Shown one piece after another: positions 1,329 to 61,957 of a DNA stretch of 64,000 bases. Position numbers and translations under genes: made by a program. Within the stretch, counting starts at the first letter, position 1, and each line of letters opens with the position of its first letter. The stretch is taken from positions 110,484,001 to 110,548,000 of the forward strand of contig OZ024743.1 in assembly GCA_964016885.1 (NCBI GenBank). The letters are read 5' to 3'. Origin of the DNA: Eledone cirrhosa. Lineage: Eukaryota. The notes below the pieces were generated by a model. It did not search any database. It saw nothing but the letters and a program-made list of their open reading frames with translations, and was not told the origin of the DNA.

Positions 1329-1362
<34 letters not shown>

Positions 1363-1588
1363 AACAATTAAGTTAAAGATGTACATCCATATATGTATAC
1401 TGAAATACTAGTATGTATATGAATACACACACGTATACATATGTAGATGTACCAAGTTTTTTTCACTGGTCACTTTACTGTGAGTGGCCAGCTATTCCGT
1501 ATGTAAACACACAGACAAACCGGTTTTTAGAGTCATACTGGTTTTTGAGGAAACACCTTTCCTCTATTCTCCAGAAAGCCAGACAAGG

Positions 1589-1633
1589 AATATTGAACTA
1601 GTTTCGTTGTTGTTACAACTCATCAGCAATATT
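1589..1633 (-). ncRNA. Minimal type I hammerhead ribozyme, copy 1
   Basis: Minus strand reads aatattg-CTGATGA-gttg taacaa caac-GAAA-ctag-TT-caatatt. It has a 7-bp stem I, an intact core, a 4-bp stem II, a palindromic stem III (CUAG) and a GUU cleavage triplet. Confidence 0.9.
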
Positions 1634-1718
1634 TACCTATCTTCCGGCCTCTCTAGAGAATCGTAAAAGCACATAGCGTTATATGCTTTTTCTATGAAAA
1701 TTAGTAGTGGGCAGACTA

Positions 1719-1726
1719 ATTTGCAT
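1719..1726 (-). promoter_or_regulatory. Octamer motif ATGCAAAT, one per 468-bp unit
   Basis: atttgcat on the plus strand is a perfect octamer on the ribozyme strand, about 86 nt upstream of the hammerhead. Function is not shown. Confidence 0.4.
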
Positions 1727-2056
1727 AGAGTGTGAGTAAGTACCGGTTCAACGGAGACGATAAAAACAAATAACGAAACGAAATTAAATTTCGTTTCGTT
1801 TGTAACTCACTTTTGTATGACTGACGCTTAAACAATTAAGTTAAAGATGTACATCCATATATGTATACTGAAATACTAGTATGTATATGAATACACACAC
1901 GTATACATATGTAGATGTACCAAGTTTTTTTCACTGGTCACTTTACTGTGAGTGGCCAGCTATTCCGTATGTAAACACACAGACAAACCGGTTTTTAGAG
2001 TCATACTGGTTTTTGAGGAAACACCTTTCCTCTATTCTCCAGAAAGCCAGACAAGG

Positions 2057-2101
2057 AATATTGAACTAGTTTCGTTGTTGTTACAACTCATCAGCAATAT
2101 T
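2057..2101 (-). ncRNA. Minimal type I hammerhead ribozyme, copy 2
   Basis: Same sequence as 1589-1633, offset +468. Confidence 0.9.
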
Positions 2102-2524
2102 TACCTATCTTCCGGCCTCTCTAGAGAATCGTAAAAGCACATAGCGTTATATGCTTTTTCTATGAAAATTAGTAGTGGGCAGACTAATTTGCATAGAGTG
2201 TGAGTAAGTACCGGTTCAACGGAGACGATAAAAACAAATAACGAAACGAAATTAAATTTCGTTTCGTTTGTAACTCACTTTTGTATGACTGACGCTTAAA
2301 CAATTAAGTTAAAGATGTACATCCATATATGTATACTGAAATACTAGTATGTATATGAATACACACACGTATACATATGTAGATGTACCAAGTTTTTTTC
2401 ACTGGTCACTTTACTGTGAGTGGCCAGCTATTCCGTATGTAAACACACAGACAAACCGGTTTTTAGAGTCATACTGGTTTTTGAGGAAACACCTTTCCTC
2501 TATTCTCCAGAAAGCCAGACAAGG

Positions 2525-2569
2525 AATATTGAACTAGTTTCGTTGTTGTTACAACTCATCAGCAATATT
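2525..2569 (-). ncRNA. Minimal type I hammerhead ribozyme, copy 3
   Basis: Same sequence as 1589-1633, offset +936. Confidence 0.9.
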
Positions 2570-2992
2570 TACCTATCTTCCGGCCTCTCTAGAGAATCGT
2601 AAAAGCACATAGCGTTATATGCTTTTTCTATGAAAATTAGTAGTGGGCAGACTAATTTGCATAGAGTGTGAGTAAGTACCGGTTCAACGGAGACGATAAA
2701 AACAAATAACGAAACGAAATTAAATTTCGTTTCGTTTGTAACTCACTTTTGTATGACTGACGCTTAAACAATTAAGTTAAAGATGTACATCCATATATGT
2801 ATACTGAAATACTAGTATGTATATGAATACACACACGTATACATATGTAGATGTACCAAGTTTTTTTCACTGGTCACTTTACTGTGAGTGGCCAGCTATT
2901 CCGTATGTAAACACACAGACAAACCGGTTTTTAGAGTCATACTGGTTTTTGAGGAAACACCTTTCCTCTATTCTCCAGAAAGCCAGACAAGG

Positions 2993-3037
2993 AATATTGA
3001 ACTAGTTTCGTTGTTGTTACAACTCATCAGCAATATT
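2993..3037 (-). ncRNA. Minimal type I hammerhead ribozyme, copy 4
   Basis: Same sequence as 1589-1633, offset +1404. Confidence 0.9.
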
Positions 3038-3460
3038 TACCTATCTTCCGGCCTCTCTAGAGAATCGTAAAAGCACATAGCGTTATATGCTTTTTCTATG
3101 AAAATTAGTAGTGGGCAGACTAATTTGCATAGAGTGTGAGTAAGTACCGGTTCAACGGAGACGATAAAAACAAATAACGAAACGAAATTAAATTTCGTTT
3201 CGTTTGTAACTCACTTTTGTATGACTGACGCTTAAACAATTAAGTTAAAGATGTACATCCATATATGTATACTGAAATACTAGTATGTATATGAATACAC
3301 ACACGTATACATATGTAGATGTACCAAGTTTTTTTCACTGGTCACTTTACTGTGAGTGGCCAGCTATTCCGTATGTAAACACACAGACAAACCGGTTTTT
3401 AGAGTCATACTGGTTTTTGAGGAAACACCTTTCCTCTATTCTCCAGAAAGCCAGACAAGG

Positions 3461-3505
3461 AATATTGAACTAGTTTCGTTGTTGTTACAACTCATCAGCA
3501 ATATT
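3461..3505 (-). ncRNA. Minimal type I hammerhead ribozyme, copy 5
   Basis: Same sequence as 1589-1633, offset +1872. Confidence 0.9.
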
Positions 3506-3864
3506 TACCTATCTTCCGGCCTCTCTAGAGAATCGTAAAAGCACATAGCGTTATATGCTTTTTCTATGAAAATTAGTAGTGGGCAGACTAATTTGCATAG
3601 AGTGTGAGTAAGTACCGGTTCAACGGAGACGATAAAAACAAATAACGAAACGAAATTAAATTTCGTTTCGTTTGTAACTCACTTTTGTATGACTGACGCT
3701 TAAACAATTAAGTTAAAGATGTACATCCATATATGTATACTGAAATACTAGTATGTATATGAATACACACACGTATACATATGTAGATGTACCAAGTTTT
3801 TTTCACTGGTCACTTTACTGTGAGTGGCCAGCTATTCCGTATGTAAACACACAGACAAACCGGT

Positions 3865-4790
3865 GGGAACTTCTCTATGGTGAAGAACCATTAGTAGAAA
3901 TAGAAAATAAATTCTGGATATGGAAGCAGCAGTTGGAATCAAGAGGACTGAGAGTGAACCTAGTTAAGACAAAAGTGTCGATAAGTAGAAAAGGGGACAA
4001 CACTCTGATTCCATCAGGGAAATGACCATGTTCAATATGTAGAAAAGGAGCTGGCATAAATTCAACAAAATGTGCACAATGCAGATCTTGGTTACACAAG
4101 AAATGTAGTGCGATAGCAGGCAAACTAACTTGTAGGTGAAACTACATATGCAGTAGTTGTACAGGGAAATTTGACAGTAGAATTCGCAGTGATCGACACA
4201 TCTTTCAAATGCAGGTTGATAGTTTCGGGTACCTATCTGAAAAGATTAGAAAGGGAGCGTGGTGCTCCGATGCCATAGTATCTAGAATAAGGACGGGTTG
4301 GAAAAAGTTTAGGGAGATGCTTCCTTTGTTGACAAAAAAATGTTTGTCCCTGCGAACGAAAGGCCGGTTACATGATGCCTCTGTGAGATGCGCGATGCCG
4401 CATGGTAATGAGGCATGGACAGCAACTGCGGAGGATATGCGACTGCTAGAGAGAAATGAAGCAAGCATCCTCCGTTGGATGTGCAATGTCGATGTGCATA
4501 GATGAGTTGAGAGAGAAACTGTATAAGAGGGATAAGTAGTAGTGTGCGGGAGAGAAGACTGATGTGGTATGCATACGTGATGTTCATGGAAGAGAACGCT
4601 GGGTAAAGAAGTGCTACAAAATACCAGCGGAAGGAATACGCAGTAAAGGAAGACCACGAAAAACATCGGCGGAGTGGTGAGAGCAGACGCGCAGCGCATG
4701 GAGGAGATGACAAAGGACCGTGACAAGTGGATAGATGCTGTGCTGAATAGGGAAAAGCGGACGTAGAATGATGATGATGATGATGATGAT
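3865..4790 (+). mobile_element. 5'-truncated, decayed RTE-clade LINE (RT C-terminus)
   Basis: Peptides WELLY..., LESRGLRVNLVKTKV, a Cys-rich PCSICRKG..C..C..WLHKKC insert, SRIRTGWKKFREMLPLL and LLERNEASILRWMC. It has stops and frameshifts and ends in a (GAT)n tail typical of RTE. Confidence 0.85.
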
Positions 4791-5085
4791 ATATATATAT
4801 ATATATAAATGAAAAGTATAGAAATTGTTGTAACGAGAAGCTAACAGTATTTCATAACATATATGTGACTATAGCGTCAAAATGGGAAAATAGTTGGGAA
4901 TAGATATGGGAAAAATAATTCAGACTCAATTCAAAAGGAATCAGGATATAGATTTATCCAACAGAATGTAGAGAAATCCAGGGAAAAATCAATAGAGCCT
5001 TAACTCATACTAAAACAAGAGGAAGGAGCAAGAGGAAGGAGCAGCCATTGGTGTTAGCATTGCAGGCGACATAGCTAACTTATTC

Positions 5086-6297
5086 ATGGTATGGTGGGAC
5101 AGTAGACTTAAACAAAAACTTAATGAACAATTAGAAGACAGCTTAACCCTGATAATGTACTCCCGCTACGTAGATGATATAAACATCGTAGTTAAGACAC
5201 CCCCACTAAAGAACAGTCAGGAACTAGAGAAAAACACAATGGAAAGCATCCAGCAAATAGCAAACTCCATCCACCAGAGCATTAGAGTTACTATAGACTA
5301 CCCAAGTAGACACCCCAACCATCGATTACCTGTACTAGACACAGAGCTCTGGTTAGATACCATTAACAACCCAAAACAAATCCTCCATTCCCATTATGCC
5401 AAACCCATGACTTCCAAACATCTGATCCACCGAAACTCGGCCATTTCGGACCATACCAAAATCAACATACTGATTGCGGATTTGGTACGAGTGATGAGAA
5501 ATGTGTCCCGCATGTGCAACCCCGAAGAACTAGAGAGACACATACAACACTTCATCCACCGTATGCAGTTCTCTGGCTACAATCAGAGAGATAGAATCAG
5601 AGTGTATAAAGGAGCCAGAACCAAATGGGAAAAAATGGTAAATAATGACATAAATGGGACCTGCCCCTTGTATAGGAGCAAATTTTGGAATAGAATAGAA
5701 AGAACTAGGAACAAGGCCAATAGAATAAACTCATGGTATGATAGCAATAAATACCAGAGTGTAATGTTCATCAATACAACCCCTAGAGGCGAACTAGCCT
5801 ACAAATTTAGAAGGGCCCTAAATAAACATAATCTCAATATTAAGATAGTAGAAAGACCTGGTACCTCCGTAAAAACACTTATTAGCAAGACATACCCGTT
5901 CCAAAGACCCTCATGTATAGATAAGAAATGTATAACCTGTAAAATAAGCCCCCATATTAACTGTAAAACTAGAAATGTAGTGTATAGCATAAGATGTACT
6001 GAAGGACAATGTAGAAACAAAAATATAGTGTACATAGGTGAGACAGCTCGAAGTATAGGGGAACGAATAAATGAACACTGGCGAGACCTCCAAGATAATA
6101 AAGAATCATCTGTGCTCTACCAACATGCTAAGATAGAACACAGGGGTAGATTAGAGAGCATAGAAATAAAAATAGAATCCACGCACAGAAAAGACGCAAT
6201 GTTTAGGCAAATTACAGAGGAAGTAAGCATAAAAGAATTAAAACCAAAATTAAATAGAAAATATGAGTGGAACAGCAACATCACAACTTACAATTAA
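5086..6297 (+). CDS. PLE reverse transcriptase C-terminal half plus GIY-YIG endonuclease (open frame, 5'-truncated)
   Basis: In-frame GAAIGVSIAGDIANLF from 5041, RYVDD, LPVLD, CxxxxCxxC, NVVYSIRC...YIGETARSIGERINEH and E..I...KPKLN. Confidence 0.9.
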   Translation: MVWWDSRLKQKLNEQLEDSLTLIMYSRYVDDINIVVKTPPLKNSQELEKNTMESIQQIANSIHQSIRVTIDYPSRHPNHRLPVLDTELWLDTINNPKQILHSHYAKPMTSKHLIHRNSAISDHTKINILIADLVRVMRNVSRMCNPEELERHIQHFIHRMQFSGYNQRDRIRVYKGARTKWEKMVNNDINGTCPLYRSKFWNRIERTRNKANRINSWYDSNKYQSVMFINTTPRGELAYKFRRALNKHNLNIKIVERPGTSVKTLISKTYPFQRPSCIDKKCITCKISPHINCKTRNVVYSIRCTEGQCRNKNIVYIGETARSIGERINEHWRDLQDNKESSVLYQHAKIEHRGRLESIEIKIESTHRKDAMFRQITEEVSIKELKPKLNRKYEWNSNITTYN

Positions 6298-6552
6298 GGA
6301 CAAAATGAAAACACACACACACATAGAACAAACAACTTACAATTGAAAACACACACAAAATGAAAACACACACACACATAGAACAAACAACCAACCAACA
6401 ATAAATAAATAAACAAATAGAAAAATGGACACAAACACACACAGACACCTGGATGTGGCACATGCGCAAACTGAGCACACAACACACACACAGAAACAAA
6501 ATGGCGTAGGATAGAAGAAAGAAAAGGCACAGAAACGAAGAAAGGAATTCCC

Positions 6553-6597
6553 AGTCACTGAAGAGGTCACAGAGTGTGTGACGAAAGGACTATGACT
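6553..6597 (+). ncRNA. Type I hammerhead in PLE 3' end
   Basis: agtca-CTGAAGA-g gtcac agagtgt gtgac-GAAA-ggac-TA-tgact. Confidence 0.8.
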
Positions 6598-7003
6598 ATA
6601 TATATAAACAACTATCTGGTTGTGGAACCAACGAACCAACCAGAAATTTATAAGTTTGTAGATTTGTAAATTTATAAATTTATAAATATATAATAAATTG
6701 AAGTGAAAGCAACTGGTGCGTGTGTTTCTTATTGGCAACATGACCCTCCCAAAGTATAACAATATCGGTTTCAACACACGATTTCAGATAAAGAATCTTG
6801 CTAAACAAATTCAGAAACGAAATATATATATATATATATATATATAGATATATATATATAATGAGAAAATGCGAAGTAGTTTCAGATGTTAAATCCTTTA
6901 TTGGTAATGCTGTGATACATATTTCAATGACGACAGTGGCCACTTGATTATGTGTACCCAGTGCCGTGACATCATCAGACAGCTTCTTATATAATAAGTT
7001 TAC

Positions 7004-10699: not shown

Positions 10700-12365
10700 G
10701 TAAATATATACACACATATACATATTTATATATATATACATAAACACACACATATATATAAGTATGTAAAAAACAGATATAAAAACGCACATACACACAC
10801 GCATATACACATACACGAACACATACGAATGCATTCGCATACATATACAAACACGTATACACACATATGCACACACTTACACGCATACATACAATATAAA
10901 AACCAGCCGTATGAATAGAAGAGAAAAATTATACGCTTGTAAACATACATAAAAGCGGCTGAGGGACAACAGAATATATCTGGTGGTGAAAACGCAAGTG
11001 ACATGTGCTATCAGGTAGTGAAAGAAAAAAACGGAAGTAAAATATGTAAAATTGTGAAGATACAAAATAAGTGAATCAAGAAGCAGGGGAGGAGGTGTCA
11101 CTAGTGGATGTGAAGTAAAAATAAAGTTAAAAAAAAATAAAAGTAAATCAGAAAGATAAGTCTGTAAAGAGGGTAATTTAAGGAAAGGGAAGAACAAGAG
11201 TTTATGGAGGATAAGTATCTGAAAGTGAGTTAAGTTTATATGAGCTGGAAAGCAAGTGTGATTTCATGTGTGGACAACTGGTGAACATTTCTGTTTTTGC
11301 ATTTAGGCAGGTTTTTTGGTGATGTAAGTGTCTGTAAAATCCAATATTTTTCACTTATGCAGAGTGCGCATATTCTTTAGATTGGTTCAAAATTGACCAA
11401 TCTAATTTATAATGGATACCTTGGTCTTTCAAATCCCATATTCTGCTAACCAGAGCTGTTGTAAATCTTTTTTCAGGATGTCGGAAAGATGCGACATCTG
11501 AGTAATAACGCGTTTTGAATTTGTATTGTGTCATACCCACATATCGTTCGCTGGTGGCTGGTAGGTTGTTGCTGGTGGTTGTCACTTTAGCCGCATATAG
11601 AATGGCTTTGGTGTTGCATTTACCTTGTAATGGGCATTCACTTTTGACACTACAGGAGCAATTTTGATGTTCTCTGGGTATTTTTTTTATTGAGGATATA
11701 ATATTTAATAGGGGGACCGCAAGAGTAGCTGATTTTGACATAGTTTCTATTGAAGATCTTATAGTATATATGTGTTCTACGGAAATATTTATCTAAGAGC
11801 TCTGGGAATTGTTTGCCTACATTAGTTTTAATTGCTAAAGTGTAGGGGGTGTGAACCAGATTATTTTTATTTTCCTATTATTATGTTTAAAGGAGTAAGT
11901 ATTGTTGGGTATGTACTTAATCGGTTCGCTAAATCCGCTATTTTGAAGGGCTGTATTATAGTAGAGGGATGCCTTATTGAAAATAGCTTCTGAGGAAGAG
12001 AGGGTGGACTTCCTACGGCTAATATTTTGGTTAATATTTTTAAAAAACTATAGGAGGATGGCAAGAGCCTTTATTTATATATTTTAAATGTTCATTAGGT
12101 TTATGGTACGGTTTATAAGAAGCAGTAGGCAGATCAGGTTTATATCTAGAAAATTAACAGTAGAAAGGTTAGTGTCAATTTTAATTTTAAGATTAAAACT
12201 AGCGAAGTTTTTTTTAATTCTTTCCTGAATCTCTCTAGGTTATGGCCTTGAGTGGTATGGAAAAGTATCAAACCATCGTCGCGATAAGGCCCAAAAGGTA
12301 TCGTTAGGGAATTTCTCTTTAAGGGTGTGTAGGAAGAATAAGCCGACTAAATCACACACGTCAGC

Positions 12366-13167
12366 TTACTCACATGTCGCATCTTTATGACATCCGGAAA
12401 ACAAATTTACAACAGCTCTGGCTAGTAGAATATGGGATTTGAAAGACCAAAAATCCAATATAAATTAGATTGCTCAATGTTGAAACAATCTAAAGAATAT
12501 GCAAGAGGAACAAGAAGATGCGGACTCTGCATAAGTGAAAAATATTGGATTTTACAGAACATTAAATCACCAAAAACCTGCCTAAATGCAAAACCAGAAA
12601 TGTTCACCAGTTGCTTACACATGAAATCAAACTTGCTTTCCAGCTCATATAAACTTAACTCACTTTCAGATACTTATCCTCCATAAACTGTTGTTCTTCA
12701 GTTTCCTTAAATTACCCTCTTTACAGACTTCTCTTTCTGATTTACTTTTATTTTTATTTTTATTTTTATTTTTATTTTTACCTTTACTTTTACTTCACAT
12801 CCATCAGTGAGACCCCCCCTGCTGTGTATTCACTTACTTCATATCTTCACAATTTTACATATTTTACTTCCCCCTTTTCTTTCACTACCTGATATCACAT
12901 GTCACTTGCGTTTTAATCTCCAGATATATTCTCTGTCGTCCTCCAGCCGCTTTTATGTATGTATACTTGCGTATAATTTGTACTCATTTATTCATACGGC
13001 TGGTTTTTATATTGAATGTATGCGTGTAAGTGTGCACATGTGTCTGTATACGTGTTTGTATATGTATGCGAATGCATTCGTATGTGCGCGTGTATGTGTA
13101 TATGTGTCTGTGTATGTGTGTTTTTATACCTATTTTTTCTACATGCTTATATATATGAGTGTGTGTG

Positions 13168-31696: not shown

Positions 31697-32247
31697 GTTG
31701 TTTCTATTTTTGTCACAAGGCCAGCAACTACCCAGTACATTACTCGTACTTTATTTTATTGACCCCGTAGGGATGAAAGGCAAAGTTAACCTCAGCGGGA
31801 TTTGAACCCAGTTCGTAAAGGGACGTAACTCTCTGCTGCAAAGCATGGCTTACGACCCTCTAGCGATATTGCCAAGTAAATGTTTCTACTTTTGGCACAA
31901 GGCCAGCAATTACCCAGTGCATTACTGGTACTTTATTTTATCGACCCCGTAAGGATGAAAGGCAAAGTAAACCACGGCAGGATTTGAATTCAGAATGGCA
32001 AAGACCATAACTCTATGCGTCAAAGCCTGGCGTCCGACCCTCTACCGATATTGCCAAATAATTGTTTCTACATTTGGCACAAGGTCAGGAATTATCCCAG
32101 TGTATTACTGGTACTTTATTTCATCGACCCCCGTAAGGATGAAAGGCAAAGTTAACCTCGGCAGGATTTGAACTCAGACCATAAAGGGCCGTAACTCTTT
32201 GCTGCAAAGCAAGGCGTCCGACTCTCTACCGATTCTGCCAATCCACC
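31697..32247 (-). mobile_element. Three head-to-tail SINE copies
   Basis: Copies at ~31697-31875, 31880-32057 and 32061-32247, each diverged from the others. Confidence 0.85.
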
Positions 32248-41503: not shown

Positions 41504-42057
41504 GTATATATAGTGTATTTTGCAATACATTTTATGCTTAATTAAAAGCATTTTGAAGACCGTATGCTATTGTTTTAGAGTAGTGACAGACTCACTTACT
41601 TTAATTTCAGCAAACAGGGGAGATAAAGCTGACAAGGCATTTAGTGATGCTTATCAATTAAGCATAACGTGCATTGCAAAATACACTATATATTCACTCA
41701 TATATATATGGCTATTTCAAAGCACCAATTCTAATTTTTAATTTCTGCTTGACCGGCAACCGCTCTGTATATTCAGTTCCTGATTATTTACTAGAATTCT
41801 ATAAGAACATAACATCCGTAATTTCAGCGGACGGGAGGAGTAGTTGGCTTTGATAAGCATCAATAAATGCAGAAACAAGGCCTTGTCAGCTTTATCTCAC
41901 CCTGTTTGCTGAAATTAAAGTAAGTGAGTCTGTCACTACTCTAAAAGAATAGCATACGGTCTTCAAATTGCTTTTAATTAAGCATAAAGTGTATTGCAAA
42001 ATACACTATATATACACTCATATATATATGGCTATTTCAGAGCACCAATTCTAATTT
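41504..42057. mobile_element. Small fold-back/direct-repeat element between (TA)n tracts
   Basis: 41504-41640 is inverted at 41880-42017, and 41668-41738 is directly repeated at 41988-42057. Confidence 0.7.
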
Positions 42058-42790
42058 ATATATATATATATACATATATATTTATTATTTTTCCCCATTA
42101 AATTACGTCCGTTATTTTCTTTTATATCAGCCTCTCTTTAAATTTGTTTAGGCTTTGTTTTGAAATCCATATCTGACATACACTTCAAATAAAATGTCAT
42201 TACGATGAACGATTTCAGACGTCTGCGTCGAGCCTTTCCGTCTACGTGAAAACTTTGGTAAATGGAATAATTGTCTTATGTTGTTTATTACATAACTAAA
42301 TAGCTTTGCAGCCTACATAGAGCACTCTCCTTTCCTTTACCTTTCCACACGGCTTCCATTCCTTGGAACATAACTTAACTACCGGCTCAATCCCGATCTA
42401 ATCCGCCGTGACCTTTCTCCGAACTTTACACACCTTCCCACACTTGGTCTTTCCTTCCACGCATTACCTCTGTTTGATTTTGTTACCATACTTGTTTTTT
42501 TCCGTATAAGATTTTTGCCTGTGTTCTTACAATTGTATTTCTATGATTTTTTGTTCACGGTTGCCTGTGTTTTTACCTTTATGATTTTTTGTTCACGATC
42601 GCCTGTGTTTTTTCCTTTATGATTTTTTGTCTTTAATTTTCCTGTGTTTACTCCCCCCTCCCTACGTTTTTCTGTTTCATTTTCCCTTCCCCGTCTCTGC
42701 CTATCCTTCGCACTCACCCCTTCGTTCACTCCACTCCGCTTCACACCCCTGCCCACTCATCCCTCCCCCTGCTTTCACCCAACGCCCATC

Positions 42791-45540
42791 ATGCCCAACC
42801 TGAGATCCTTTCTCCACCAACTATACAATCGCCTCAAACTTTTCCTCACCCCCCCCCCCCTCCCACCCTGCTATCTCCCCTCCGCCCTTCAACTCTCCTA
42901 CCTTCTCTTCGCCAAAACCCGGCACTCCAGCCACATCCATTTCCTCAGCCACTGCCTCCGCCTCAACCTTATCCCCCTCGGCTTCCGTCTACACTTCCAC
43001 CCCTCCCCCGCCGCTTCCCCCTCCACGCAACGTATCCTCACCCGATCCTCACGCCTCCTGATGCGCAACTCCATCCGCGCCTCCCGTTCCACCCTCCGCC
43101 TACTTGACCACCAACTGACCCCCACCCTCCTCCGCCTTTACTCCACCTGCCACCCCCTCCTCGCCCAAGCCATCCTCTCCTTCATCCATAACCTCAACCA
43201 CAACCTCTTCTCGTTCCTCAGCTCCACCAAAGCCCGCAAGCTACACTCACTCCTCCCCCCTCATCCACCACCACCCGCCCATCCCCATACGCCCACCACT
43301 CTCCACCTCTCCCTCGACCCCCCCTACCCAATCTCCAACCTCCACCTCACCCCACCCCCCAAACACCCAAACCCCACCCCTTGTTGTCACCATACCCCTG
43401 ACCTCCCCCTCTCCGCACCTGAGCGCTCACTCCTTAGTAGAGTCCTTCGCTTCATACCCCACACTCCGCACAGCGACGAGTTCCGCACCCGAACGGAAGT
43501 CGAGCGATTCGTGCGACGCACTAACCTACAGGCACATTTCGGCCGAACGCCACCGGCTCCGGACGCCCCAGACCCGTTTCTCGCCCTGGGCCGACGACCA
43601 TCTTCTTGGACGCCAGCCCCAGGGTAATTTAGCACCCTGGACGCCTTCGTCGAAGCCAGCCGTAGCGCAGTAAATCGTTTCGACTTCCGCCACCGTTCCA
43701 AACGGCACAATATCTCACGGGGCGAACTCTCCGCTCCCTCCGTAGCCGACATGACATCGTCATCGAACCGGCGGACAAGGGAGGCGCCGTAGTGGTATGG
43801 CGCGCGGACCTCTACACGGCCGAAGCCCTCAGGCAGCTCTGTAACCCCCTCTTTTACCGCCCTCTACCCTCCGATCCCACCCCCCTCTACCAACAACAAG
43901 TCTCCTCCACCATCAAAGACCTTATCGCCTCCTCCTTTCTCCCCCCCAAGCTTCCCACCTCATCGTCCGCACCCCCCGCACCCCCACCATCTACTTCCTC
44001 CCCAAACTCCACAAACCCGACAACCCCGGCCGCCCCATCGTCTCCGCTTGCAACTGCCCCACCGAACTCATCTCCGCATTTCTCGACTCCCTCCTCGCCC
44101 CCCTTGTCACTACCCTCCCCTCCCACATCTCCGACACCAACCACGCCCTGCGCCTTTTCGACTCCTTCACCTACCTACCCGGCCCACAGCCCTTCCTCTT
44201 CACCCTAGACATCAAGTCCCTCTATACAGTCATCCCCCACGCCGACGGCCTTCGCGCCCTCAAACACTACCTCGACCTTCGCCCCTTCCCCATTCCCTCC
44301 ACCCCAAACTCCTTCGCCTCGCCGAGCTGGTCCTCACCCTAAATTGTTTCTCCTTCTCGGGCGAGTTTTACCAACAGGTCACGGGGGTAGCCATGGGCAC
44401 AAGAATGGGCCCGAACTATGCCAACCTTTTTGTTGGCCATGTTGATGCTCACATATTTGCCCAGTACACCGGCCCCACGCCCGAACTGTACGGTCGTTAC
44501 ATTGACGACTCTATCGGAACCACGACCCTCACCCGAGAACAGCTCGACTCCTTTCTCTCCTTCTTCTGCTCCTTCCACTCTTCCCTCCACTTGACCACCT
44601 CTATCTCCACCACCCACGTCCACTTCTTAGACATCTCCATCGCCTTCGGCCCCTCTCACCACTCCCTCGTCACCTCCGCCTTCTTCAAACCCGCCGACTC
44701 CCACTCTTACCTCGACTTCACCTCTTCCCACCCCACCCACACTAAACACTCCATTCCCTACTCCCAACTTATCAGGATCCGCCGCCTCTGTAGCCGTGAT
44801 GCTGACTTCGAGTCCCAGGCCCTAGTCAGCCAATTCATTTCCCTAGTCAGCCAATTCATCCGCAGAGGTTACCCCCCCTCTCTCGTCTACACCGCTCTCA
44901 CCCGCGCCCGTGCTGTCCCCCGCTCCACCACCCTCACCCCACGCCACCGCACACCCACCCACCGTCTCCCCTTCCCCATCACCTACCACCCCTCCACCTT
45001 ACCCCTCCACCGCACCATTAGCCGCCTCTACCGACGCCTCTAGTCCGACCCCTCCACCTCCCACCCCCCCTTCAAACGCGCACGCAATCTCCGCACCCTC
45101 CTCGTCCACAGCTCCCTACCCCCCAACCCAGGCTCTCTTCCTCCCCCCGGTTCCTTTCCCTGTTCTAGGCCCCGCTGCAACACCTGTCCCCACATCATCA
45201 ACACCACCACCTTCCAGGGTCCCAACGGCCACTCTCTCTCGGTCCGGCATGCCTTCCGCTGCACCTCCTCCAACCTAGTCTACGACTTATGTCGGACAGA
45301 CGGGACGTCGCCTGGCAGACCGAGTCACGGAGCACCTCCGGGATATTCGTCTCGGGGGCAGTTCCCCCATCGCCCGCCACTTTGGTGGCCCTGGACACTC
45401 CGCACGCCATCTCACAGTCTGTGTCCTACTCCAGTGCCACGGAACACCCGTCCATCGCCTTACGTTCGAACAACGAACTATCTTCATCTTACAGACCCAC
45501 ACTCCCCCCGGCCTGAACTCCCCACCCTTATTCCTTTAGC
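42791..45540 (+). pseudogene. PLE polyprotein (N-terminal domain, RT, GIY-YIG), frameshifted
   Basis: PADKGGAVVVWRADLY, PKLHKP..PGRPIVS, LDIKSLYT, GVAMGTRMGPNYANLF, RYIDD, SIPYSQLIRIRRLCS, CSRPRCNTC, NLVY..YVGQTGRRLADRVTEH and PGLN, spread over several frames. Confidence 0.9.
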
Positions 45541-47035
45541 GTTCTACCGCACCCCTCCCCCCACGCTCATCCCCCACTAACACCACTAACACACCCCTCC
45601 TTTTCACCGCCCACCCCACACTAACAACACTAACACCTCCACTCCACCCCTCATCTGACCACCCTTCCCCAACTAACATACTAACATCGCTTCCCTCCCC
45701 TCTTCTCCTCTTCCCCCTCCTTATCACACGCACACCCCCACCGGCACATATATACACGCGCTCACACACCCTACTACCAACACTAACCCTCACCCACACA
45801 CCTCTCACTCCCACACGTACATCCCACCATCCCGCAACTAACCTCACTAACACCCCCTAACCCCAAGCACACGAACACACGCACCCACTTACACCACCCA
45901 ACCCACACGCAACTAACATCACTAACACCCCCCAACCCCACGCACACGTACCCACACACCCTCGTACACCAACAACTCTACACACCCTACCACCAATAAC
46001 CCCCACTCACACCTGCATTCAACCCCTCCCCACCTCCCGTATACTAACACCCACTAACACCTCTTCATCAAACTACACACACACCAGTACACCACACTCC
46101 CTCCATAGAACCACACACACCCTTCTCTCCCCCCGCATCATCCACACCCTCGCTCCACACTCACTCATCCCACACACCTCTACTAATACACCCCCCCCTC
46201 CTCACTCCCACTTTTACGCCTACCCATCCTCGCCCCCTTACCATTCCACCGCCTGCTGCTATGCCCTCTGACAACCTCCCAGCACTAACAGACCACAGCA
46301 CTCCCACTGCTGACCACTTCCTGTTGCGCGCGCACCCCACATCTCTCCTATTCCGACCACCGCTTCATGGATTACCCACACGCAGAAATTGACTTACAAT
46401 CAATCCACTAAACATCCTTGAACTTTACCAACTTTTCAACCATCCTCTTACGTAATCACCTATATAACTCACTCACACACACACCCCAACATTTTTTTTT
46501 CTCCACACGCCACCCACACCCACAACACGCTTAAACCCCACACACGTGCTTTCCACCACATATTTACACCCTCAGCCTCCTGATTCCTCTCCCCCACCCC
46601 CATATCCGAACACGCACAGACACTCCGTCCCACAAAAACACCCCCCACACACACACCTCTTCCTGAACATGCAACCCCGTTCTTCCCCCAACCCTTACTT
46701 TCACATACACACACACACACACACGCACACCTACACACACACACCACCTTCAGCCCTCCCCGCTCGGACATCCCTTCTCCCTCTCCCCACTCCACCCGCC
46801 ACCACCTCTACTCACCCCACACCCTTCCACCACCTGTTTACCCCCCTTTTAATTTCAGTTTATTTTGATCATGCCTTTATTTTTAAATTTATCTCATTCC
46901 TTGTATTTTGATCATGCTTTATTTTTATTTTTATCTTTATTTGTTATTTTTTCATTCGCACCGTTTCCTTTCGCTATATGTCTCTCCACCACTCCCCTAC
47001 ACAACTTTTGAACTCTGTTCCCACACACTTCTCAC

Positions 47036-47066
47036 CTGAGGAAGGGCTTATGCCCGAAACGTCGTC
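47036..47066 (+). ncRNA. Minimal hammerhead core of Neptune-like PLE
   Basis: CTGAGGA-a gggc ttat gccc-GAAA-cgtcg-TC. An adjacent stem I is not obvious. Confidence 0.6.
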
Positions 47067-47130
47067 CCCCACCTACACCCCACTCTCCTGAGCGTGAAAT
47101 TAATAAACATTGTACTGCAACCAAAAATAC

Positions 47131-47726
<596 letters not shown>

Positions 47727-48463
47727 AACAAAATATGCTCAAAACGAATGCAATAAAATTTCAATAAAAAATTAAGATGGAAAAAGACGAACAAGTAAGA
47801 AGAAAGGAAATGGAAAATCAACCATATCCGTATGACAGACGTAGCATTACCGGCAGAATTTACCAAAGACCATACAATAAATATTTATGCGAACACTTTA
47901 ATCAATGAACGATAACAACAGGCTCTACAGCTCCCACCGAAATTTGCTATCTACAAAAAGGTAAATCCAATCGAGTATAAAACGGAGCTTGTAAAGTGTT
48001 TCACAAAAATACGTTGGAATGCGAAAATAAACAACAGAACAAAAATAACCACAGTAGTAATCTATATATATATAACTGTTGTTGTTGTGTGTATGTGTGT
48101 GTGTGTGTATCCTCATTTTTGCAAAGTCTATACAAATCCACATTTCTACTCCGATTGTCTTCAAACTTACATTTATATATTCCTTGCAGTCTAAAGATAC
48201 TAACTGCAGCTTTTATTTTTAAATTTTCTGTTGTTAAAGGGATGTTAGGCGCCGGTTATCGATCTTAGTCGAGCCCTCATAATATCTGTCTGTATGTCTG
48301 ATGTCTGCATAACGACATTCTGACGAACAAGTCATTACTGACGTATTATCTTCGCTACATTCTACACACACACACATATATATACATATATACTTATATA
48401 TACATATATACTTATATATACATATATACTTATATATACATATATACATATATACACATATAT

Positions 48464-53199: not shown

Positions 53200-55000
53200 C
53201 ACACAACTATGACGAAACATATAATTACAACCCCTTAGAGAAACTATTCTTCAAATCAGCTGACAAAACATAAGATGAATAACATTTATCCTGCGAGCTT
53301 ACCCTTTAATAAAAGGGTTTGTATACCATAACAAATATATGCTGAGACAGAGGTACAGTTCACCATAGCTAGAAATAAGTTTAGACAAATAGTAGACCGA
53401 TATACTAAGAGACAAAGAAGACAAGTGGTCCAACAACTTGGAAGAAAACCTGTAGAAAGTTTACTTAGCCTCAAGCAGCGCACAAGGGATGGTGAGGTAG
53501 TGTGTCTACCCACAGATAAATCTGGTAGGATGTCAATAGATAGCATGCCGAACTACATCAAGGTTATGCAACCCCACATCACCAACACGAGCGAAATTAC
53601 ACAACAAACACACGGGGGGAGAGAGAAGATCCTTAACGATCACATGGTGATGTGGACCGACATCCTAAAGCCAAGCAGACGCACTGCCAACAACATGCAA
53701 GCGTATAACAATGACATACCACCCTTCTATGACTTCCGCAAAGACCATAAGACAGTCAACGACCCGACGACAGGACCATCAACAAAACCTGTATGCGGAG
53801 TCAATATCGCTAGCAACTACAGGATCTCCTACTTCCTCTCAATGGTTATAAGCACCATAATCAAGGTGTCCCCAGATGTATGTGAAAGTACAGAGGAACT
53901 CCTCAGCAAAATCAATGAATGCAACAAAAACAAAAAACCTATCTAATTGCATAATAGGCAGTATGGACTGCTATCATTATACCCATCCATTAACATTGAT
54001 TTTGCTGTGGAAAATGTGTAGAGATGTTCATTGAGAGTGAGGTGGAGATCTGCGACGTCGTCACAGATGAACTGGGTCTTTTACGTAGACTTACCTATCA
54101 CACCGACTACCTAGAGAGCCATGACGTTAGCCGTTTCTGCCCAGTAGACCCATAAGAGGTAGACGCCCCACCATCACCTCAATGGCAAAAAGGCTCCCTT
54201 GAGAAAGTGGATTGGTGGATTGGGTGGACAAAAGCCATACAGACCCCCCAAAACAATGATCAGGTAAGAAAAATGGTCGCGCATGCAATAGGGGCTAGTA
54301 TCAAAACTACCCTAACGAAACGATCTACACCCAAAATGAGGGAGCAGCCATTGGCGTCAGCATAGCTGGTGACTTTGCCAGTCTTTTTATGGTATGGTGG
54401 GAAAGGAGACTCAAGGATATATGTGATGAGAGTTTCATAGACCTCATCATGTACTCTCGTTACGTAGACGATATCAATATAGTAATAAGATCCCCCCCCC
54501 CCCGCCCACAGGAGAGTTCTAACAAGTCTGATTTAGAATGTAGCACACTGGAAAGCATCCAGAAGATAGCTAACTCCATACACCAGAGTAAAACTGTAAC
54601 TATCGACTACACTTCCAAACACCCTAACAATGGACTACCTGTATTAGACACGGAACTCTGGATTAACACTATAGACGAGAGGGCCCAAATCCTCCACCCA
54701 CATTACACTAAACCCATGTCCTCCAAATACCTGATACACAAAATCTCAGCAATATCCAGTAGTGCTAAGTTTAATATTCTGATCGGAGACTTGGTACGAG
54801 TGATGAAGAATGAGGCCCGCATGTTCGACCGAACAGAAATGGAAAGAGACATCCAACAACTCATCAACCGCATGCAATTCTCTGGCTACAACCAAAAAGA
54901 CAGAATCAGAGTATACAAAGCAGCAACGGAGAAGTATAAGACCCTCATATAACTGGACATGAAAGGAATTTGCCCATTATACGGGAGAAAATCATGGTCT
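53200..55000 (+). pseudogene. PLE RT pseudogene ('MVWW' type, related to 5086-6297), lacking the endonuclease
   Basis: PTDKSGR, RKDHK..GP.TKPVCG, CESTEELL, GSMD..SLYPSI, GAAIGVSIAGD, MVWWE, RYVDD and MQFSGYNQKDRIRVYK. It has frameshifts and is truncated at a hairpin near 54985. Confidence 0.9.
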
Positions 55001-61440: not shown

Positions 61441-61873
61441 GTAAAGCCAGAATCCTACTGTACTAAGAGTGAGAAATGAAATTTCGTTACATTCTATTCC
61501 ATTTATCGTTTTCGGTGTGCCCGGCCGACTAAACTCACTCGATATGCAAATTAGGCTGCACAGCCGTTAATATGCATGAGGAAAGTATATACTTTCAAAC
61601 GTTTAACCATCTGGCAGGAAGGTATACGATGCTGACGATAGCTAATACGCTTGGAACTATTACATCGTTCCTGTGTCAGTGTTGAACAAAACAGGTGACG
61701 TGGTTGCCTAAATACTGGTTTAGGCAACACGGTTTGCTTGTTTGTTTACAAAGAAACAAACAGAGCATTATAATAAATGTTCGGTAAACCGATACGTGCA
61801 TATATATATATATGTGCATGTATGTATATATATACATACTACTGTACGTCTGTATACATATGTGTATGTACAT

Positions 61874-61957
<84 letters not shown>

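What the first reader, a model, noticed from the sequence alone, without database searches (positions are those of the whole stretch)
1361..3864. Putative cephalopod non-LTR retrozyme: homogeneous 468-bp tandem array with one hammerhead ribozyme per unit
Seen: 5.35 apparently identical 468-bp units with no plausible protein. Each full unit has a complete minus-strand hammerhead (aatattg CUGAUGA guug-uaacaa-caac GAAA cuag UU caauauu). The 3' end on the ribozyme strand abuts (TA)n, like the PLEs nearby. Established: animal non-LTR retrozymes are tandem hammerhead-bearing repeats of a few hundred bp whose transcripts self-cleave into monomers that circularise, and they are thought to be mobilised by PLEs. 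Inference: the non-integer copy number and uniform sequence fit one recent rolling-circle reverse transcription of a 468-nt circular RNA. I do not recognise this family, and the unit is at or above the long end of the range I know.
Basis: partly seen in the sequence, partly recalled or inferred. Interest (0 to 1): 0.92.

Follow-up and report, generated by a model that had tools for sequence, protein, structure and literature searches.

The report
Ribozyme repeat copied by Penelope elements
This is one copy of a large family of protein-free jumping repeats that each carry a self-cutting RNA, and the shape of their insertions shows that a Penelope-type jumping gene pastes them into the genome, probably by reading round and round one small RNA circle, a mechanism proposed for such repeats but not yet shown.

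Summary
Confirmed: 5.35 identical 468-bp units, five minus-strand type I hammerheads, (TA)n at the 3' end. It is one of at least 1,753 dispersed insertions of a non-LTR retrozyme family; I found no description of it.

The window shows half of the usual insertion. Most copies are two head-to-head arrays whose 3' ends sit in (TA)n at two fixed unit positions 69 nt apart, with 5' ends spread over the unit (16 of 21 and 24 of 40 loci). That is the Penelope-like element (PLE) inverted-copy-plus-tail signature. A young PLE family and an older sister retrozyme in this genome show it too.

Locus-specific variants fill every unit of both arms. They are skewed to A>G on the ribozyme strand (18 versus 4 T>C), which fits one RNA circle, sometimes ADAR-edited, read repeatedly from both nicked DNA strands.

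Cleavage, circles, editing and the partner PLE are inferred, not shown. The scan earlier noted PLE-type ends on a ribozyme-free tandem unit in another genome (e1-7881736, unchecked).

The parts
1361..3864 (-). Retrozyme array, 5.35 identical 468-bp units; the proximal-start (unit position 235) arm of the family's insertion type. Unit positions count from the predicted cut site on the ribozyme strand.
1329..1362 (.). (TA)n target tract abutting the 3' end of the array
   Evidence: both flanks TA-rich in 50 of 53 insertions
1361..1361 (-). 3' end at unit position 235, the inferred proximal reverse-transcription start
   Evidence: same end at 98 exact junctions in G000
1573..1644 (-). Type I hammerhead 1; predicted cut between 1596 and 1595 after GUU
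2041..2112 (-). Type I hammerhead 2; cut 2064/2063
2509..2580 (-). Type I hammerhead 3; cut 2532/2531
2977..3048 (-). Type I hammerhead 4; cut 3000/2999
3445..3516 (-). Type I hammerhead 5; cut 3468/3467
1596..2063 (-). One full cut-to-cut monomer, the predicted 468-nt circle (three more at 2064-2531, 2532-2999, 3000-3467)
1760..1828 (-). 69-nt 'tail' (unit positions 236-304) between the two fixed 3' ends, with a 13-pair hairpin at 1772-1800; position 304 (1760) is the distal start used by the partner arm at other loci; repeated in each unit
1719..1726 (-). ATGCAAAT octamer (unit positions 338-345), shared with sister family B; a promoter role is a recalled lead from newt satellite 2, not tested
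   Evidence: search gave no paper to support it
3864..3865 (.). 5' junction at unit position 72, joined directly to a decayed RTE-like LINE fragment (label recalled); no distal-start arm is present at this locus

Best explanation
A young, high-copy non-LTR retrozyme mobilised in trans by a Penelope-like element. (1) Inferred: an array is transcribed on the ribozyme strand; the hammerheads, probably acting as dimers through the palindromic stem III, cut it into 468-nt monomers that are ligated into circles. (2) Inferred from shown anatomy: a PLE protein binds the conserved region round unit positions 235-345, nicks both strands of a (TA)n tract and primes reverse transcription from both DNA ends, one strand starting at position 235 and the other at 304. 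(3) Inferred from shown variant patterns: both reverse transcriptases read round the same circle, through the cut site, for 0.1 to about 13 turns (longer arms up to 27 units show signs of later duplication), stop at positions spread over the unit, and the two cDNAs are joined head to head. (4) Shown: the product is two inverted arrays with fixed 3' ends in (TA)n; the window copy has only the 235 arm. (5) Weaker inference: some circles were A-to-I edited first, so the edits stand in every unit. My odds: retrozyme 0.93, PLE twin priming 0.88, monomer circle as usual template 0.75, ADAR origin of the A>G skew 0.55.
For: Dispersal: 255 matches from 37 of 284 candidates scored; 1,753 exact distal junctions, control 0; 7,747 exact hammerhead cores, control 0. 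Two-end rule: 16 of the first 21 distal-end insertions on C1 have an inverted partner ending at 230-235; 24 of 40 loci picked by the proximal end have a partner ending at 300-304, and none of the 40 has two proximal ends. This matches the PLE inverted copy plus tail (PMC8557442) and the two internal RT starts with both strands cut and extended (PMC11167929). The PLE at window 4807-6822 belongs to a young family (150 scored hits at 98-100% aa identity, frames to 1,294 aa) with the same build in 9 of 12 long stretches and a 57-58 nt tail. Sister family B obeys it in 15 of 25 stretches with a 57-nt tail. 5' ends ignore the cut site: 4 of 123 within 10 nt, 5.3 expected. In 37 two-armed loci, 59 of 62 comparable patchy variants are not shared between arms, while 14 of 37 loci carry variants fixed in both arms and seen fixed in no other of the 37. 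Locus-fixed variants: A>G 18, T>C 4 of 51 (p 0.002), C>T 7, G>A 6; patchy variants A>G 13, T>C 12 of 128 (Fisher p 1.5e-4). L180 has five A>G fixed in both arms. Stem II has a two-sided pair swap in 7 of 16 aligned monomers.
Against: No partner is identified: families A and B showed no homology beyond AT-rich noise and one 15-nt match (E 0.87) to 8 PLE 3' regions, and the young PLE's tail is 57-58 nt, not 69. Exceptions to the two-end rule: 4 of 21 and 5 of 40 loci have no partner arm, 5 of 40 end elsewhere, L049 has two distal-type ends, and family B loci L137 and L146 have two proximal-type ends. Two of 62 patchy variants are shared at the same unit index in both arms (L047, L173), which suggests multimeric templates at times. 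'Unique' variants were judged on 37 of at least 1,753 loci. The A>G skew was noticed after the fact; the replication alone gave 8 versus 2 (p 0.06), its patchy variants were also skewed (4 versus 0), and without L180 and L075 p is 0.046. The 5' neighbour gave no support (G in 2 of 18 against 23 of 151). Only 2 of 149 predicted pairs show two-sided change. The Rfam score is under the gathering score. The anole PLE used uncleaved RNA in vitro, and 8 of 9 Xenopus retrozyme dimers did not cleave.
Confidence: 0.75

Rival explanations
1. A PLE mobilises it, but the template is a long uncleaved read-through transcript of an existing array; no circle is needed and uniformity is inherited from uniform parent arrays.
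For: The anole PLE inserts unprocessed RNA and hammerhead mutants do not affect it (PMC11167929). Two of 62 patchy variants are shared at the same unit index in both arms. The window's unit is identical in arrays on C22 and C7, so uniform potential parents exist.
Against: 59 of 62 patchy variants are not shared, and 14 of 37 loci have their own variants in all units of both arms. Five A>G changes fixed in every unit of both arms of L180 need a one-monomer bottleneck at some step; copying linear arrays can only shorten them.
Confidence: 0.16
2. Monomers or short pieces were inserted and the arrays grew afterwards in DNA by unequal crossing-over, as a satellite (the route discussed in preprint 10.64898/2026.07.22.740005).
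For: The 26.8-unit arm at C3:113.97 Mb has patchy, roughly periodic variants, so local duplication does happen in long arms.
Against: Both inverted arms share locus-specific variants; arms are non-integer with fixed 3' ends and 5' ends not tied to the cut site; most arms are nearly free of internal variation.
Confidence: 0.04
3. The circle also exists outside this genome, as a viroid-like or horizontally moving RNA in other animals, and the genomic arrays are PLE-made copies of it.
For: Runs labelled as organisms B and J each hold the whole unit as one flankless contig that closes on itself (497 and 496 nt, depth 11.4 and 4.5), 98-99% like the window.
Against: The stem II swap, the GUC triplet and most other differences in those contigs occur in G000 subfamilies. 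Depth is low, the kind of run is not on record, and a tandem DNA array also gives a closed contig, so cross-contamination or close kin explains it more simply. The hammerhead is on one strand only.
Confidence: 0.04
4. The array in the window is an assembly artefact (collapsed or expanded repeat).
For: Perfect uniformity; homopolymer indels in some arrays look like read errors.
Against: Arrays at other loci have their own fixed variants, lengths and junctions; the junction rules are shared with two independent families. The exact copy number here was not checked with long reads.
Confidence: 0.01

Closest known systems
Animal non-LTR retrozymes (coral, mussel, axolotl; PMC7229834, parts 2-4 of 6 read; vertebrate survey 10.64898/2026.07.22.740005, parts 1-3 of 5 read)
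   Same: [quoted passage not shown] Stem III resembles axolotl HHR_Amex1 (one pair, palindromic tetraloop), which cleaves well as a dimer.
   Different: The parts of those papers that I read do not describe two-armed inverted insertions, two fixed 3' ends or (TA)n targeting ('inverted' 0 times in PMC7229834; 'tail' 0 in the preprint). They link retrozymes to PLEs by co-occurrence and pLTR homology; here the link is insertion anatomy and no pLTR homology was found. Their supplements were not read.
Penelope-like elements, EN+ (anole PAc, PMC11167929 parts 1-2 of 4 read; overview PMC8557442, passages read)
   Same: 5'-truncated tandem copies with an inverted copy, a tail on one end equal to the distance between two internal RT starts, both DNA strands primed, AT-rich or (TA)n targets, hammerhead upstream of the starts.
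   Different: No ORF; tail 69 nt against the 30-40 bp reported; up to 27 units per arm; canonical rather than minimal hammerhead.
Non-autonomous Chlamys PLEs such as MRC1 (PMC8557442, passage)
   Same: Non-coding PLE passengers, often in multicopy head-to-tail insertions.
   Different: Those resemble their autonomous partner at the 3' end and belong to a clade reported to lack canonical hammerheads; this family has a hammerhead and no matched partner.

Membership tests
Animal non-LTR retrozyme | Tandem repeat of a few hundred bp, GC under 50% | tested here: met
   468 bp x 5.35; GC about 35%
Animal non-LTR retrozyme | Type I hammerhead with intact core in each unit | tested here: met
   5 of 5 hammerhead-bearing units match HH9 at E 5.8e-7, below gathering score; core invariant and stem II swap in 7 of 16 monomers
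Animal non-LTR retrozyme | No protein, no LTR structure | tested here: met
   Frames of at most 65 aa inside a unit; ends are (TA)n-joined truncations. PBS and PPT were not searched for.
Animal non-LTR retrozyme | Dispersed multicopy family | tested here: met
   1,753 distal junctions, 7,747 cores
Animal non-LTR retrozyme | Stable self-paired monomer fold | tested here: met
   z -11.1 circular, ribozyme strand; covariation outside the hammerhead is weak, 2 of 149 pairs in all
Animal non-LTR retrozyme | Target-site duplication longer than 4 bp when present | tested here: inconclusive
   50 of 53 insertions have TA-rich flanks on both sides, which hides duplications; one candidate of about 9-13 bp at L051
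Animal non-LTR retrozyme | Self-cleavage in vitro | not testable with these tools
   Needs transcription assay
Animal non-LTR retrozyme | Expressed as linear and circular monomer RNA | not testable with these tools
   No test was obtained (see Tried and rejected); only indirect genomic signs
PLE-mobilised non-autonomous element | Inverted 5'-truncated copy joined head to head | tested here: met
   16 of 21 and 24 of 40 loci; absent at the window locus itself
PLE-mobilised non-autonomous element | Tail on one end only (two fixed internal starts) | tested here: met
   Ends at about 235 and 304; 0 of 40 with two proximal ends; one locus with two distal-type ends
PLE-mobilised non-autonomous element | Young autonomous PLE with same target and build in the genome | tested here: met
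   Pfam support is weak: GIY-YIG E 1.5e-4 and RVT_1 E 0.0074 on the window fragment, no family on the full frame; CX4CX2C before the endonuclease fits Neptune/Nematis as described.
PLE-mobilised non-autonomous element | Sequence shared with the partner's pLTR | tested here: not met
   No real match to 8 PLE 3' regions or to fetched PLE loci; only a few of the genome's PLE families were seen
Autonomous PLE | RT plus GIY-YIG ORF | tested here: not met
   No ORF in the unit
Viroid-like hammerhead RNA | Ribozymes on both polarities, replication without a DNA copy | tested here: not met
   Hammerhead on one strand only; thousands of genomic copies

The most novel reading that the evidence does not exclude
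Each insertion is a DNA record of one ribozyme-made RNA circle that a Penelope-like protein read in rolling-circle fashion from both nicked strands at two fixed starts, and some circles had been ADAR-edited, so somatic-type RNA edits were written into the germline and into every repeat, feeding the family's evolution. This would give genomic proof of the retrozyme life cycle and a fossil record of RNA editing. A remoter extension (about 0.04) is that the circle also moves between hosts outside the genome.
Probability: 0.45. Interest if true: 0.82.

Novelty: new member of a known kind. Interest (0 to 1): 0.66.

Why it matters
What moves animal retrozymes, and whether their arrays are made at insertion from circles or grow later as satellites, is stated as open in PMC7229834 and in the 2026 preprint. 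This family is young and large enough to read the answer off the genome: two fixed starts name the exact bases at which a PLE protein should begin cDNA, a young PLE family with long open frames in the same genome is a candidate enzyme, and two sister retrozyme families define the shared RNA signal. The same data bear on how PLEs build their inverted, tailed insertions: both arms come from one template variant. If the A>G skew is ADAR editing, RNA edits are being fixed in the genome through a circular intermediate.

Tried and rejected
Sequencing runs: no RNA holder listed. Twenty rows in 17 studies hold part of the unit; only X4, X12, X20 and X21 were laid, the other shares are no evidence. X21 (Hi-C DNA, about 1 in 100 read) gave 0 reads, which the tool marks as no test. 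X20 (wastewater) holds one 157-nt piece; not interpreted.

Metagenome scan for the hammerhead core: 0 matches. Viral and prokaryote collections were not scanned.

Partner PLE by homology: none among 8 PLE 3' regions or fetched loci; the older PLE at window 10.7-13.1 kb has best relatives at 87-93% aa identity with short frames and was not pursued.

Reverse transcription starting at the ribozyme-cut 3' end, or running off at the cut 5' end: rejected; 3' ends lie at 235/304 and 4 of 123 5' ends lie near the cut (phases read, not included).

G.U-wobble tolerance as sole cause of the A>G skew: disfavoured, as C>T 7 versus G>A 6 shows no matching skew, but not excluded. ADAR neighbour preference: uninformative. 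The replication was planned for 40 loci and ran on 20, of which 14 were usable. In one search a second, divergent insertion in L178 was dropped because it had inflated the patchy counts. Loci with under 150 doubly covered positions (9 of 69) and older subfamilies (13) were left out of the spectrum.

Rfam miRNA hits: AT-rich hairpins far below gathering scores. Sigma-70 scan: not relevant to a eukaryote; used only for hairpin coordinates. Earlier findings by place and by sequence: nothing.

Literature searches that found no cephalopod retrozyme and no report of inverted, tailed retrozyme insertions or edited retrozyme copies: (listings), with finds. The library lacks most subscription papers, Repbase and Dfam were not available, and no supplements were read.

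Full report
OBSERVATION. Window 1361-3864 is 2,504 bp of exact 468-bp periodicity (5.35 copies, 0 mismatches). Five minus-strand matches to Rfam HH9 score E 5.8e-7, 37.7 bits, under the gathering score of 52. The predicted cut follows GUU at 1596/1595 and every 468 bp after. Stems I and II form in a local fold (p 0.63-0.99); stem III is one pair plus a palindromic tetraloop and does not form in the model, like axolotl HHR_Amex1, which cleaves well as a dimer (PMC7229834). The circular monomer folds at z -11.1, the other strand at z -5.7. No frame inside a unit exceeds 65 aa. Below, unit positions count from the cut on the ribozyme strand.

FAMILY. The unit is dispersed over G000 (3.0 Gb): 255 matches from 37 of 284 candidates scored, 7,747 exact hammerhead cores and 1,753 exact junctions of one end type, both with control 0. 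Subfamilies range from 88 to 100% identity. The core is invariant in 16 aligned monomers; a stem II pair swap occurs in 7 of 16 and GUC replaces GUU in some. Whole-fold covariation is weak: 2 of 149 pairs.

INSERTION ANATOMY. Most loci are two arrays joined head to head, 5' ends inside, 3' ends outward into (TA)n (both flanks TA-rich in 50 of 53). One arm ends near position 235, the other near 304. Of the first 21 distal-end insertions on C1, 16 have a partner ending at 230-235 (three are arms of 13-20 nt read by eye), 1 runs out of the stretch and 4 have none. Of 40 loci picked by the proximal end, 24 have a partner ending at 300-304, 6 are undetermined, 5 end elsewhere, 5 have none and none has two proximal ends. 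L049 has two distal-type ends. Only 98 exact proximal junctions were counted, because that end varies by a few bases and the pattern is subfamily-specific. 5' ends show no pull to the cut site (4 of 123 within 10 nt, 5.3 expected). The window copy is a lone proximal arm whose 5' end (position 72) is joined inside a decayed RTE-like fragment; whether the other arm was lost or never made is unknown.

THIS IS THE PLE SIGNATURE. PLE insertions often carry an inverted 5'-truncated copy and a 30-40 bp tail at one end (PMC8557442 passages). The anole PLE protein cuts and extends both strands of AT-rich DNA and starts at two internal RNA sites that delimit the tail (PMC11167929). In this genome the PLE at window 4807-6822 belongs to a young family (150 scored hits, 98-100% aa identity, 17,788 candidates, frames to 1,294 aa) built the same way in 9 of 12 long stretches, tail 57-58 nt. 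Its Pfam support is weak. An older sister retrozyme, family B (about 445 bp, degenerate copy at window 61460-61880, 4,191 candidates), is collinear with this one, has a hammerhead with different stems I and II and the same stem III, and shows both end types head to head in 15 of 25 stretches, tail 57 nt. No real homology was found between either retrozyme and 8 PLE 3' regions, so the partner is not identified.

TEMPLATE. In 37 two-armed loci, 14 carry substitutions fixed in all units of both arms and fixed in no other of the 37; of 62 comparable patchy variants 59 are not shared between arms, 2 are shared at the same unit index and 1 at other indices. This fits one monomer read repeatedly by both arms, with occasional multimeric templates. 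It is not proof: only 37 of at least 1,753 loci were compared, and uniform parent arrays exist. The 26.8-unit arm on C3 shows later local duplication.

A>G SKEW. Noticed after the fact in 47 young loci: locus-fixed variants A>G 10, T>C 2 of 32. I wrote down the prediction and tested 20 new loci, 14 usable: 8 versus 2 of 19 new variants, p 0.06. Pooled: 18 versus 4 of 51, p 0.002; C>T 7, G>A 6; patchy variants 13 versus 12 of 128; Fisher p 1.5e-4; without the clustered loci L180 and L075, 12 versus 4, p 0.046. L180 has five A>G fixed in both arms; 15 of 18 sites are paired in the fold against 92 of 151 adenines. Against it: no neighbour preference, and patchy variants in the new set were also skewed (4 versus 0). 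ADAR editing of the circle is the best fit; strong editing in coleoid cephalopods is recalled knowledge. Wobble-tolerant selection and transcription-linked mutation are not excluded. The window's own unit carries one such change (98A>G) together with 388A>C, both shared with six other sampled loci.

MECHANISM. Shown: anatomy, dispersal, two fixed ends, TA target, variant patterns. Inferred: transcription, dimeric hammerhead cleavage, ligation to a circle, PLE binding near positions 235-345, nicking of both strands, twin rolling-circle reverse transcription, head-to-head joining, and prior editing. Confidence 0.75; the main rival (0.16) keeps the PLE but uses an uncleaved multimeric RNA, as the anole PLE does in vitro.

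OTHER SAMPLES. Two runs labelled as other organisms hold the unit as one closed, flankless contig at low depth. Their variants largely match G000 subfamilies, so contamination or close kin is likelier than a free agent.

COMPARISON AND NOVELTY. It meets the sequence-level criteria for animal non-LTR retrozymes; cleavage and circular RNA could not be tested. PMC7229834 proposes PLEs as candidates (also PMC7761336 passages). The 2026 preprint links the two by co-occurrence and pLTR phylogeny, discusses local amplification, and leaves the mechanism open. My searches (finds 18, 80, 81) found no cephalopod retrozyme and no report of inverted, tailed or edited retrozyme insertions; subscription papers, repeat databases and supplements were not seen. 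An unchecked note of this scan (e1-7881736) describes PLE-type ends on a ribozyme-free tandem unit in another genome; I read it after forming this view.

VERDICT. A new member of a known kind, with unusually direct genomic evidence on an open mechanism. Interest 0.66.

Noticed in passing
window 61460-61880 (+); L128:1-790; L133-L156: Degenerate copy of a second, older, homologous retrozyme family (about 445 bp, GUA triplet, 4,191 candidates) with the same two-end rule and a 57-nt tail.
   Followed up: yes
window 4807-6822 (+): 5'-truncated copy of a very young Neptune-like PLE family with frames to 1,294 aa, a minimal hammerhead-like motif 164 nt before the proximal end, and two 3' ends 57-58 nt apart inside the start of the ORF.
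   Followed up: yes
window about 10740-13150: Older two-armed inverted PLE-like insertion between (TA)n tracts; large family (47,878 candidates, best relatives 87-93% aa).
   Followed up: partly
window 3865-4790 (+): Decayed RTE-like LINE fragment with a (GAT)n tail (label recalled; no Pfam hit); the array's 5' end is joined inside its RT region with about 1 nt of microhomology to related copies.
   Followed up: partly
window 53833-55000; L050:5673-7001; L067:3-1169: Further PLE families at 46-63% aa identity to the young one; the L050/L067 family shares the young PLE's proximal end sequence and has its own hammerhead-like motif.
   Followed up: partly
L075 (C1:30.83 Mb): Three A>G changes destroy the ATGCAAAT octamer in all 19-20 units, so an intact octamer is not needed in the copied template.
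   Followed up: partly
runs X4 and X12 laid on window 1500-1967: Closed flankless contigs of the unit in runs labelled as other organisms; on the ribozyme strand X12 differs by four A>G changes among nine substitutions.
   Followed up: partly
L125:8373-9617; L178:2620-4347; L072: Retrozyme insertions often lie beside PLE copies or other retrozyme insertions in the same (TA)n-rich patch.
   Followed up: no
window 31698-32241: Three tandem copies of a 182-bp SINE-like unit, 83% alike; likeness to octopus SINEs is recalled.
   Followed up: no
window 42001-48000: GC-rich (up to 60%), strongly C-skewed stretch unlike the rest of the window, with a weak hit to the PLE protein at 44324-44797.
   Followed up: no
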